Shown piece after piece: positions 44,636-45,262 of a DNA stretch of 64,000 nucleotides. The stretch's first letter is position 1. The number at the start of each line of letters is the position of its first letter. The position numbers and the translations under genes are program-made. This DNA is from an uncultured bacterium (GTDB lineage: Bacteria > JACRDZ01), in the NCBI GenBank assembly GCA_964457585.1, contig CAYWFU010000004.1, forward strand, positions 13,927-77,926. The letters are read 5' to 3'. Below the pieces are notes generated by a model, which worked only from the letters and a program-made list of their open reading frames with translations, made no database searches and was not told where the DNA came from.

Positions 44636-44914
44636 TTGCCTTTAGTTAAGGCTTTAGTATGTTTGTCATTCCCGCAATCTTTTAGCGGAAATCTGGTTGA
44701 AATTATTAATAAAAAAATAACCATTAAAGCCCAAAATGTTAATTTTAAAGATATTTTAAAAGAAATAGAGAAAAAGTCAGAGATTAAAGTTAAAATTTTT
44801 GAAAAGGTAGAAGATTCAAATGTTTCGGTGGATGTAAAAGATATTCCTTTAAATAAAATAGAAGTTTTATTTGAAAAAATGAAACTTAAAAGTTTTGTTA
44901 TTTATAAAGTATGA
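44636..44914 (+). pseudogene. Duplicated, frameshifted fragment of the 5' (propeptide) region of the S8 protease gene.
   Basis: 44697-44989 is ~97% identical to 46895-47182 (the ...EIINKKITIKAQNVNFKDILKEIEKKSEIKVKIF... segment). A 4-nt insertion (aaag) breaks the frame. Confidence 0.7.
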
Positions 44915-45262
44915 TAAAGAAAGTAATCCTTATGAAATTTGGATGCTTTCGACAGATAAAAATGTAAACAATTCAATAAAAGGGAAAAAGGTTATTCACT
45001 AATGGCACTTTTTATTGACAAAAAAAAACATATATTATATAGTATTTAAAAAATATCAATAAAGAATTTACACAAATAACTAATTTTGAGAGGTTAATAA
45101 AGTTAATGCATATTTATATTGATAAAAAGGAAAAGATAATAAAATAATAATTTTAGAGGAAAATAAAAAGTGGGAGAGACGAGTTTCGTATCATTTTTAA
45201 CTTCTGATGATAGAATTAGGCATTATCACTTCAGCATTAAGGCGGGTTAAGGAGATTAGAAG

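What the first reader, a model, noticed from the sequence alone, without database searches (positions are those of the whole stretch)
44697..44989. A 290-bp duplication of the protease gene 5' region sits 2.2 kb upstream of the intact copy and brackets the VapBC cassette
44697-44989 is nearly identical (~97%) to 46895-47182, inside the propeptide region of the S8/PLC protease gene. A 4-nt insertion (aaag) frameshifts the duplicate. The duplicated fragment and the intact gene flank a 1.9-kb insert carrying a hypothetical gene and a VapBC-like pair. This looks like a footprint of a past insertion or recombination into the 5' end of the protease gene, with the gene start later re-created or duplicated.
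Basis: seen in the sequence. Interest (0 to 1): 0.5.

Follow-up and report, generated by a model that had tools for sequence, protein, structure and literature searches.

The report
Dead partial copy of protease gene
A 292-base, frameshifted copy of one domain-coding piece of a secreted protease gene lies 2.2 kb upstream of the intact gene, in a stretch crowded with toxin-antitoxin genes; it is most likely an ordinary scar of a recent local duplication, not a sign that something inserted into the gene.

Summary
Window 44697-44988 (292 nt) repeats 46895-47182 (288 nt) in direct orientation. 286 of 288 aligned bases match. The upstream copy also carries a 4-nt AAAG insertion (44906-44909), and both repeat edges are sharp.

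- The intact gene is collinear with 25+ homologues (signal peptide, this domain, prodomain, S8 catalytic domain). It is the ancestral copy and shows no sign of past interruption.
- The upstream copy has no start codon or signal peptide and is frameshifted. Its left flank is unrelated to the gene's 5' end.
- The repeat is not the classical propeptide. It encodes a whole secretin-N0/STN-like domain (codons 36-131).
- The 1.9 kb between the copies has no recombinase, terminal inverted repeats or attC sites. It does contain the protease's own start and signal peptide.
- The region 43507-46700 holds four toxin-antitoxin-type gene sets or remnants, at least two of them decayed.

The best reading is a recent local duplicative rearrangement that left a pseudogene fragment: either a tandem duplication of about 2.2 kb followed by a deletion, or a double template switch.

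An independent Logan contig reproduces the copy-specific SNP and the right junction, which makes an assembly artefact unlikely. No close relative exists for reconstructing the ancestral junction. Interest is low.

The parts
44697..44988 (+). A': derived, truncated and frameshifted copy of protease codons 36-131. It is a pseudogene fragment with no start codon or signal peptide of its own.
   Evidence: Searches show 286/288 identity to 46895-47182. tblastn splits it into two frames.
44906..44909 (+). 4-nt insertion AAAG that frameshifts A'. ORF 44636-44914 stops two codons later.
46895..47182 (+). A: parent copy inside the intact protease gene. It encodes a complete secretin-N0/STN-like domain plus a linker ending in the conserved KGK.
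   Evidence: Searches give the coordinates. Searches show conservation in 26 homologues, with sub-threshold STN and PilQ-N0 sequence hits. Searches give an AlphaFold2 model with pLDDT 87; the top Foldseek hits are PilQ/GspD N0 domains (prob 0.99, TM 0.53).
46789..50124 (+). Intact S8 (subtilase) protease gene of 1111 aa from ATG 46789. Its order is signal peptide, N0-like domain, fervidolysin-like prodomain, S8 catalytic domain, then a long C-terminal extension.
   Evidence: Peptidase_S8, E = 1.6e-53. (P0001 is 100% identical; the best non-self hits are 66% identical over 35% of the query and at most 58% over half or more). Searches show a collinear N-terminus in homologues.
44989..46894 (+). 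The 1906-nt segment between the two copies. It holds the DUF5647 cassette, the VapBC-like pair, and the protease's own 5' UTR, start codon and signal-peptide codons 1-35.
   Evidence: It has no match in plasmid or phage collections.
45263..45538 (+). A promoter-like site precedes it at 45015-45043 (TTGACA, 17 nt, TATAGT). The 220 nt upstream hold only broken reading frames; this may be a decayed partner gene, which is inference only.
   Evidence: PF18882, E = 4e-26; promoter-like site, 11/12; frames. The remnant has no Pfam support.
46043..46655 (+). VapBC-like type II toxin-antitoxin pair. The small antitoxin-like gene is 46043-46246. The PIN-domain toxin gene is 46236-46655 and overlaps it by 11 nt. 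The PIN protein has acidic residues at the usual PIN positions (D8, E49, D101, D119) by eye; this was not checked against a profile alignment.
   Evidence: PIN, E = 5e-10; DUF2281, E = 1.3e-3, below cut-off. (sequence).
44472..44696 (+). L: 225-nt AT-rich spacer between the MNT gene and A'. It is bounded by breakpoints on both sides. It holds a small hairpin at 44667-44692 that is not thermodynamically unusual.
   Evidence: no similarity to the protease 5' region. (homology to a sister-run contig stops at 44471). (fold z = -1.65).
43962..44469 (+). HEPN remnant (43962-44140; broken by stop codons and a frame change; read as HEPN by eye only, from the RYP... C-terminal motif) followed by an intact MNT-type nucleotidyltransferase antitoxin gene (44143-44469).
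   Evidence: NTP_transf_2, E = 2.5e-14; MntA, sub-threshold; frames. The HEPN fragments gave no Pfam HEPN hit.
43507..43650 (-). N-terminally truncated MazE/AbrB-type antitoxin remnant. It abuts a MITE-like repeat at 43653-43830.
   Evidence: translation. (MazE_antitoxin, E = 0.0019, below cut-off). for the repeat.

Best explanation
The upstream copy (A', 44697-44988) is a non-functional relic of a recent, purely local duplicative rearrangement. It is not a footprint of an element inserting into the protease gene.

The intact gene at 46789 is the ancestral, uninterrupted copy. A' is bounded by two novel joints.
- **Right joint, 44988|44989.** This is a 'duplication-type' joint: a later position (equivalent to 47182) is joined to an earlier one (44989).
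- **Left joint, 44696|44697.** This is a 'deletion-type' joint: 44696 is joined to the equivalent of 46895.

The simplest history has two steps.
1. A tandem duplication of the 2194-bp unit 44989-47182. That unit contains the DUF5647 gene, VapBC, the protease start and signal peptide, and the N0-like domain.
2. A deletion that removed the first copy of everything except the last 288 bp.

Such a deletion would be tolerated because a second VapBC and a complete protease gene remained.

A single double template-switch during replication or repair could give the same structure. In that event a piece of A is copied into a site 2.2 kb upstream.

A' then picked up, or was made with, a 4-nt insertion and two transitions near its right joint.

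The setting is an AT-rich intergenic patchwork of toxin-antitoxin modules. These are a MazE remnant, a HEPN remnant with MNT, a DUF5647 gene (a toxin-antitoxin role for it is inferred, not shown), and VapBC. At least two of these sets are visibly decayed. This shows that small illegitimate deletions and joins have happened here repeatedly.

**Shown:** the repeat, its edges, the frameshift, collinearity of the intact gene with homologues, absence of mobile-element genes or ends, and the domain identity.
**Inferred:** the order and type of the rearrangement events, and the lack of function.
For: - Repeat, sharp edges and frameshift.
- The intact gene's N-terminus is collinear with homologues through the signal peptide, the repeat and the prodomain. 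The copy at 46895 is therefore the parent.
- A' has no start codon or signal peptide. Only a TTG-initiated 92-aa ORF reads into it, with no family hit.
- No integrase or transposase within 38-58.5 kb. The neighbours are FabF, RNase III, a radical-SAM-like protein, an MTHFR-like protein, an M48 peptidase and large PKD/Ig surface proteins.
- No terminal inverted repeats, short target duplication or attC-like palindromes at the edges.
- Surrounding toxin-antitoxin genes are visibly decayed. The MazE fragment is truncated, the HEPN gene is broken, and the frames upstream of DUF5647 are broken.
- A related contig (L008, 89% nt identity over the HEPN 3' end and MNT) loses homology 2 nt after the MNT stop. 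This is another breakpoint in the same stretch.
- Independent assembly support comes from Logan contig SRR12113406_551536 (L007). It is 100% identical to window 44947-46635. It carries the A'-specific T at 44977 and the A'|segment joint. It starts exactly at the first 31-mer that contains that SNP, as expected if the k-mer graph branches there because both A and A' are in the reads. This assumes Logan's assembly k-mer size is 31, which is recalled, not taken from a tool output.
- Divergence is only 0.7%, so the event is recent.
Against: - No genome close enough to show the pre-duplication state could be found. The event order is therefore inferred, not observed.
- The two-step model needs a deletion that ends at what is also the start of a structural domain (codon 36). 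The repeat covers almost exactly one folded domain plus its linker. That is a mild coincidence under a random-breakpoint model.
- All three differences cluster in the last 83 nt (p about 0.02). A plain duplication followed by neutral decay does not predict this. Error-prone synthesis at the joint, or later gene conversion of the left 209 nt, could explain it.
- The left joint (L|A') and the linkage of A' to the intact gene on one molecule rest on the single NCBI contig only.
Confidence: 0.68

Rival explanations
1. A mobile or integrative cassette (DUF5647 plus VapBC) inserted into the 5' part of the protease gene. It carried, or re-created, a replacement gene start, so the two repeats are attL/attR-like.
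For: Direct repeats bracket a toxin-antitoxin-carrying segment that includes a complete replacement 5' end of the gene. Toxin-antitoxin modules are known to move between contexts: the MNT module occurs next to different DNA in L008. The bracketed segment is more AT-rich than the window average, 24.9% against 31.1% GC.
Against: The outer flank of A' should then hold the displaced original promoter, start and signal peptide. It does not. There is no integrase, transposase, terminal inverted repeat or attC site. A 288-bp repeat is far longer than any target-site duplication. The signal peptide in front of the intact copy matches the family pattern. The segment has no match in plasmids or phages.
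Confidence: 0.1
2. A' is the last remnant of a second, tandem paralogue of the protease. The rest of that paralogue was destroyed by deletions and toxin-antitoxin insertions. Gene conversion from the intact gene has kept A' nearly identical.
For: The region is clearly a graveyard of eroded genes. The perfect identity of the first 209 nt, with differences only at the 3' end, could be a conversion tract.
Against: No other protease-derived sequence is left anywhere upstream or between the copies by blastn or tblastn. The homologue loci examined have no tandem S8 paralogue. The model needs more events than a local duplication.
Confidence: 0.08
3. The arrangement is an assembly artefact. Two strain variants of the same region, or a mis-resolved 209-nt exact repeat, were strung together in one metagenome-assembled contig.
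For: The source is a metagenome-derived contig (NCBI, 89.5 kb). The exact shared run of 209 nt exceeds the k-mer sizes short-read assemblers typically use (from memory). A related strain or species is present in a sister run (L008). Reads could not be examined.
Against: Both copies have unique flanks on both sides, plus copy-specific variants. This cannot arise from collapsing or mis-joining at a single repeat. An independent Logan assembly reproduces the A'-specific SNP joined to the DUF5647 segment. It also shows the graph branching exactly where A and A' diverge. The alternative path through the repeat would give a protease without a start or signal peptide, plus a 2.2-kb circle, which is less plausible.
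Confidence: 0.07
4. The duplicate is functional. It might encode a free-standing truncated N0-like domain protein (ORF 44636-44914). Alternatively, it might be one arm of a RecA-driven deletion or excision switch that removes the protease start together with VapBC.
For: An in-frame TTG ORF of 92 aa covers 70 residues of the domain, and a gene caller predicted it. Direct repeats of 288 bp spaced 1.9 kb apart are good substrates for homologous deletion (general knowledge). Toxin-antitoxin loci are known to counter-select such deletions (Szekeres et al. 2007, as summarised in PMC5543033).
Against: I saw no Shine-Dalgarno-like sequence upstream of the TTG by eye. There is no signal peptide. The frameshift removes the last beta-strand of the modelled domain. 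The ORF hits no protein family. There is no conservation elsewhere, because no relatives are available.
Confidence: 0.05

Closest known systems
Tandem duplication remodelled by deletion, or MMBIR/FoSTeS-type template-switch insertion, leaving a partial-gene pseudogene
   Same: There are direct repeats of high identity. One copy is collinear with orthologues and the other is truncated at both ends and disabled. One joint is duplication-type and one is deletion-type. No mobile-element genes are present.
   Different: No intermediate or ancestral state is available here, so the event order is inferred. The breakpoints happen to enclose one complete structural domain. The differences cluster at one end of the repeat.
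attL/attR repeats of integrative islands that carry a replacement end of their target gene (for example tRNA- or gene-end-targeting islands and prophages)
   Same: Direct repeats flank an accessory segment, and the target gene stays intact because the segment supplies a gene end.
   Different: There is no recombinase. At 1.9 kb the segment is far smaller than the islands and prophages known to do this (from memory). At 288 bp the repeat is much longer than the att cores I know of. The displaced original gene end is missing on the outer side.
Toxin-antitoxin-stabilised chromosomal segments (superintegron cassette arrays; Szekeres et al. 2007, via PMC5543033)
   Same: An apparently intact type II toxin-antitoxin pair (VapBC-like) lies between direct repeats. 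Recombination between those repeats would delete it. The pair would be expected to counter-select that loss.
   Different: There are no attC sites and no integron integrase. The other toxin-antitoxin genes here are decayed. Stabilisation is an inference, not a tested property.

Membership tests
Partial-gene duplicate (pseudogene fragment from local segmental duplication) | Two copies in direct orientation, with identity far above chance and sharp edges | tested here: met
   286/288 identity, blastn E = 2.5e-141, no flank similarity
Partial-gene duplicate (pseudogene fragment from local segmental duplication) | One copy lies in a gene collinear with orthologues (the parent); the other lacks the gene's start and end | tested here: met
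   N-terminus collinear with P0002-P0030. A' has no start or signal peptide and ends at codon 131.
Partial-gene duplicate (pseudogene fragment from local segmental duplication) | A disabling lesion in the derived copy | tested here: met
   4-nt insertion at 44906-44909 causes a frameshift and stop
Partial-gene duplicate (pseudogene fragment from local segmental duplication) | Both copies are on one molecule in the organism (read support) | tested here: inconclusive
   Logan contig L007 confirms the A'-specific SNP and the right joint and implies both variants are in the reads. The left joint and the full linkage cannot be tested without reads.
Site-specific integrative element with att repeats restoring a gene end | A tyrosine or serine recombinase gene within or beside the bracketed segment | tested here: not met
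   Pfam on ORFs between 38 and 58.5 kb found none
Site-specific integrative element with att repeats restoring a gene end | The displaced original gene end lies just outside the outer repeat | tested here: not met
   The left flank 44472-44696 has no similarity to the protease start or signal peptide
Site-specific integrative element with att repeats restoring a gene end | An empty site in close relatives | not testable with these tools
   No close relative was found. The best non-self protease hits are 66% identical over 35% of the query and at most 58% over half or more; the best M48 hit is 70% identical. Genome and metagenome scans were empty.
IS or transposon insertion | Transposase, terminal inverted repeats and a short (2-14 bp) target-site duplication | tested here: not met
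   No transposase. No inverted repeats at the segment ends. The repeat is 288 bp.
Integron cassette array / CALIN | attC palindromes between cassettes; an integron integrase | tested here: not met
   The inverted-repeat scan shows no recurring imperfect palindrome between the cassettes and no integrase. No dedicated attC model was available, so this is a crude test.
Diversity-generating retroelement (template/variable repeat pair) | A reverse transcriptase nearby; differences confined to adenines of the template | tested here: not met
   No reverse transcriptase. The differences are two T/C transitions and an indel.
VapBC type II toxin-antitoxin pair (for the bracketed genes) | A PIN-domain toxin with conserved acidic residues, preceded by a small overlapping antitoxin gene | tested here: met
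   PIN E = 5e-10; acidic residues D8, E49, D101, D119 read by eye from the sequence; 11-nt overlap with the 67-aa upstream gene. The antitoxin family assignment is weak (DUF2281, E = 1.3e-3).
Secretin N0 / STN domain (for the duplicated coding piece) | Sequence match to STN/Secretin_N profiles above the curated threshold | tested here: not met
   STN best E = 0.0026 among 22 homologues, below the gathering score. PilQ N0 E = 0.023 by profile against PDB sequences.
Secretin N0 / STN domain (for the duplicated coding piece) | An N0-type beta-alpha-beta-beta-alpha-beta fold | tested here: met
   AlphaFold2 pLDDT 87, pTM 0.77. Foldseek top hits are PilQ, GspD and XcpQ N0 domains (prob 0.92-0.99, TM about 0.5), but E-values are only 0.025-0.3.

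The most novel reading that the evidence does not exclude
The two 288-bp repeats make the 2.2-kb unit (DUF5647, VapBC, protease start and signal peptide) a recombinase-free excisable and re-integrable cassette. RecA-mediated recombination would loop it out as a circle and switch the protease off. The circle could re-enter by Campbell-type recombination at any copy of the N0-domain sequence. VapBC addiction would hold the unit in place. On this reading a toxin-antitoxin pair rides on homology to a host gene instead of on an integrase.
Probability: 0.04. Interest if true: 0.5.

Novelty: new member of a known kind. Interest (0 to 1): 0.12.

Why it matters
It matters little on its own. It is a clean, datable example (0.7% divergence) of how an intergenic toxin-antitoxin 'junkyard' in a poorly sampled candidate-phylum genome gets rearranged. 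It also warns annotators that the 92-aa ORF at 44636-44914 is a pseudogene fragment, not a gene.

Two side products may be more useful. First, the duplicated piece defines a conserved secretin-N0/STN-like domain at the N-terminus of a family of large secreted subtilases. Second, the direct repeats predict a specific deletion product, a protease without its start and without VapBC, that could be looked for in population data.

Tried and rejected
**Comparative reconstruction of the ancestral junction failed.**
- Exact-protein look-ups for VapC, the M48 peptidase and the protease found no contigs.
- The best non-self protease homologues are 66% identical over 35% of the query and at most 58% over half or more. 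The best M48 homologues are at most 70% identical; they are labelled Poribacteria, Desantisbacteria and Firestonebacteria.
- Their loci L001-L006 share no upstream synteny with this window.
- Scans of genome contigs and metagenome contigs found nothing, either with an exact 26-mer or with peptide patterns.
- A third homologue search with only the N-terminal 180 aa returned nothing, not even the protein itself. I treat this as a tool limitation.

**Mobile-element ideas were rejected.**
- No integrase or transposase.
- No terminal inverted repeats, target-site duplication or attC-like palindromes.
- No Rfam family.
- No plasmid or phage similarity.
- PHROGs and PADLOC added nothing for the bracketed genes.

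**Leads at the left joint came to nothing.**
- The hairpin at 44667-44692, just left of the joint, looked like a possible recombination or stalling signal. It is unique in the window and not unusually stable (z = -1.65).
- The 6-mer ATCTGG that ends the left flank also starts a MITE-like repeat (43656, 9548, 9717). Alignment shows nothing beyond those 6 nt, so I treat it as coincidence.

**Other ideas.**
- A diversity-generating retroelement was rejected (no reverse transcriptase; the differences are not adenine-specific).
- The PLC-like label for the protease C-terminal region was not confirmed by Pfam.

Full report
**1. Observation**

Copy A' is 44697-44988 (292 nt). Copy A is 46895-47182 (288 nt). 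The start-to-start spacing is 2198 nt.

A script comparison gives 286/288 identical aligned bases. There is one 4-nt insertion, AAAG at 44906-44909, in A'. There are two T/C transitions: 44939/47133, which is synonymous in the protease frame, and 44977/47171, which changes Thr128 to Ile.

Self-blastn of the window gives E = 2.5e-141. It finds no third copy, and tblastn with the protease N-terminus finds none either.

The edges are sharp. MAFFT shows no similarity to the left of 44697/46895 or to the right of 44988/47182. A word-size-7 blastn of all four flanks against the whole window gives only chance-level 11-19-mers.

The first 209 nt are identical. All three differences lie in the last 83 nt; if differences fell evenly along the repeat, this clustering would have p about 0.023.

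The insertion frameshifts the copy. The only ORF entering it starts with TTG at 44636 and ends at 44914, two codons after the insertion.

**2. What the duplicated piece encodes**

The intact gene is 46789-50124, 1111 aa from the ATG. It is a subtilase (Peptidase_S8, E = 1.6e-53). A weak fervidolysin-type prodomain match lies at residues 186-257 of the 1126-aa ORF.

The repeat covers codons 36-131. That places it after the signal peptide and before that prodomain. 'Propeptide region' is therefore imprecise.

The same segment is conserved in 26 of the 119 non-self homologues listed. Sequence profiles give only sub-threshold hints: STN, best E = 0.0026; FecR_C; and PilQ N0, E = 0.023.

An AlphaFold2 model built from the 22-sequence alignment is confident (pLDDT 87, pTM 0.77). 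Its best Foldseek matches in the PDB are all secretin N0 domains from PilQ, GspD, XcpQ and LspD (prob up to 0.99, TM about 0.5, E = 0.025-0.3).

So the repeat is one complete N0/STN-like domain plus the linker that ends in the conserved KGK. In A', the frameshift removes the last beta-strand of the modelled domain.

**3. Which copy is ancestral**

BLASTP of the first 287 residues against P0002 gives 48% identity. The alignment runs from the signal peptide (ISNNSYAKTE against SFNNAFAETE) through the repeat, the prodomain and into the catalytic domain, with only small gaps. Twenty-five other homologues begin the same way.

The junction between signal peptide and repeat at 46894/46895 is therefore the family's normal arrangement. 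The copy inside the gene is the parent, and nothing suggests the gene was ever interrupted.

A' is the derived copy. It has no start or signal peptide, and its left flank is unrelated to the gene's 5' end.

**4. The surroundings**

The neighbouring genes are ordinary chromosomal genes. Upstream are FabF-like, RNase III, radical-SAM-like, MTHFR-like and M48 peptidase genes. Downstream are large PKD/Ig surface protein genes. No integrase, transposase or reverse transcriptase was found between 38 and 58.5 kb.

Between the M48 gene (ends 43506) and the protease lies an AT-rich patchwork (26% GC against 31% for the window). In order it contains:
- an N-terminally truncated MazE/AbrB-like fragment on the minus strand, 43507-43650;
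- a MITE-like repeat, 43653-43830, with two more copies near 9.5-9.8 kb;
- a reading frame broken by stop codons and a frame change, which I read as a HEPN remnant by eye (it gave no Pfam HEPN hit), followed by an intact MNT-type antitoxin gene, 43962-44469;
- a 225-nt spacer;
- A';
- a promoter-like site (TTGACA, 17 nt, TATAGT, 45015-45043), then broken frames, then a DUF5647 gene, 45263-45538 (E = 4e-26);
- about 500 nt without a convincing gene;
- a VapBC-like pair, 46043-46655 (PIN, E = 5e-10);
- the protease's own leader, start and signal peptide.

The 1906 nt between the two copies is therefore not simply an 'insert'. Its right end is the native 5' end of the protease gene.

I found no recurring palindromes of the attC type and no Rfam family. 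There is no similarity to plasmids or phages.

**5. Independent sequence evidence**

Exact look-ups showed that the DUF5647 and VapB-like proteins also occur in a Logan assembly.

That contig is SRR12113406_551536 (L007, 1689 bp). It is 100% identical to window 44947-46635. It contains the A'-specific T at 44977 and the joint 44988|44989. It begins exactly 30 nt before that SNP, which is the first 31-mer that distinguishes A' from A.

A k = 31 graph would break there if both variants are present in the reads. The value k = 31 for Logan is recalled, not taken from a tool output. The right joint and the copy-specific variant are therefore real features of the read set, not products of scaffolding.

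A second Logan contig comes from the sister run (SRR12113407_5127316, L008). It carries an MNT variant with 89% nucleotide identity over window 44080-44471. Its homology stops 2 nt after the MNT stop codon, and a HEAT-repeat gene follows. This is another breakpoint in the same stretch. It also shows that the MNT module sits in different contexts in related organisms.

**6. Mechanism**

A' is bounded by two kinds of joint.
- The right joint is duplication-type: the equivalent of 47182 is joined to 44989.
- The left joint is deletion-type: 44696 is joined to the equivalent of 46895.

Two standard routes give this structure.
- (i) A tandem duplication of the 2194-bp unit 44989-47182, followed by a deletion that removed the first copy up to its last 288 bp. 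This loss would be tolerated because a second VapBC and a complete protease gene remained.
- (ii) One replication or repair event with two template switches that copied A into a site 2.2 kb upstream.

I favour (i) slightly, because both steps are common and the region shows repeated small deletions. Route (ii) would explain the clustering of the three differences next to the right joint as error-prone synthesis. The sequence alone cannot separate them, and no microhomology can be scored because the pre-event sequence is unknown.

Neither is found.

A tandem-paralogue remnant would be expected to leave other protease debris. None is found.

An assembly artefact would have to create two copies with unique flanks and copy-specific variants. 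That contradicts L007.

**7. Consequences (inferred)**

Direct repeats of 288 bp are substrates for homologous deletion. The product would lack VapBC and the protease's start and signal peptide. Loss of an apparently intact toxin-antitoxin pair is expected to be counter-selected, as shown for superintegron cassettes (Szekeres et al. 2007, summarised in PMC5543033). This could help explain why the duplicate persists. It is untested here.

**8. Comparison and verdict**

This is a new instance of a well-known kind of event: a partial-gene duplicate left by local rearrangement.

It resembles the att repeats of gene-end-restoring islands only superficially. It fails their defining tests: no recombinase, and no displaced gene end on the outer side.

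Noticed in passing
window 9548-9646, 9717-9830, 43653-43830: A small structured repeat family with three copies. Module a is ATCTGGAAGTGCCAA...TTGGCAC, with an optional inner hairpin CCCTGCAG-TTTA-CTGCAGGG. Module b is CCTATCAGAGACAGAAGATACC followed by a hairpin whose stem differs between copies in a compensatory way. The 43653 copy has 18-nt terminal inverted repeats (94%) spaced 87 nt apart, like a MITE. No Rfam family matches. Two copies sit in tandem at the predicted 5' end of ORF 7572-9833 (-), which may therefore be mis-started.
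   Followed up: partly
window 46894-47184 and homologues P0002-P0030: A family of large secreted S8 proteases carries a conserved N-terminal secretin-N0/STN-like domain between the signal peptide and the prodomain. The named homologues are labelled Deltaproteobacteria, Geobacter and Geobacteraceae. Pfam does not recognise the domain at threshold. Its role in a protease is unknown.
   Followed up: partly
window 43507-43650 (-), 43962-44140 (+), 45107-45250 (+): Decayed toxin-antitoxin remnants. There is a truncated MazE/AbrB-like antitoxin fragment. There is a fragment I read by eye as a HEPN gene, broken by stop codons and a frame change, upstream of an intact MNT gene; it gave no Pfam HEPN hit. 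There are broken frames upstream of the DUF5647 gene that may be a lost partner gene; these have no family support.
   Followed up: partly
L008 (Logan SRR12113407_5127316) 1-392 vs window 44080-44471: A related organism or locus in a sister sequencing run has the same HEPN-3'-end/MNT module at 89% nt identity. It is followed by a HEAT-repeat gene instead of the spacer and A'. Homology ends 2 nt after the MNT stop codon.
   Followed up: partly
window 55232-55378 vs 58381-58527: An 85%-identical 147-nt stretch forms the C-terminal tails of two different secreted Ig/PKD-domain proteins (50134-55383 and 57861-58547). It may be a shared sorting or anchoring signal.
   Followed up: no
window 54313-55214: Internal tandem repeats of about 276 nt (74-82% identity) correspond to consecutive PKD domains in the 1749-aa surface protein.
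   Followed up: no
window 42244-43506: The best homologues of the M48 peptidase are only about 70% identical. They are labelled Poribacteria, Desantisbacteria and Firestonebacteria. The source organism therefore seems to belong to a sparsely sampled lineage with about 31% GC. It is absent from the GTDB-representative genome collection searched.
   Followed up: partly
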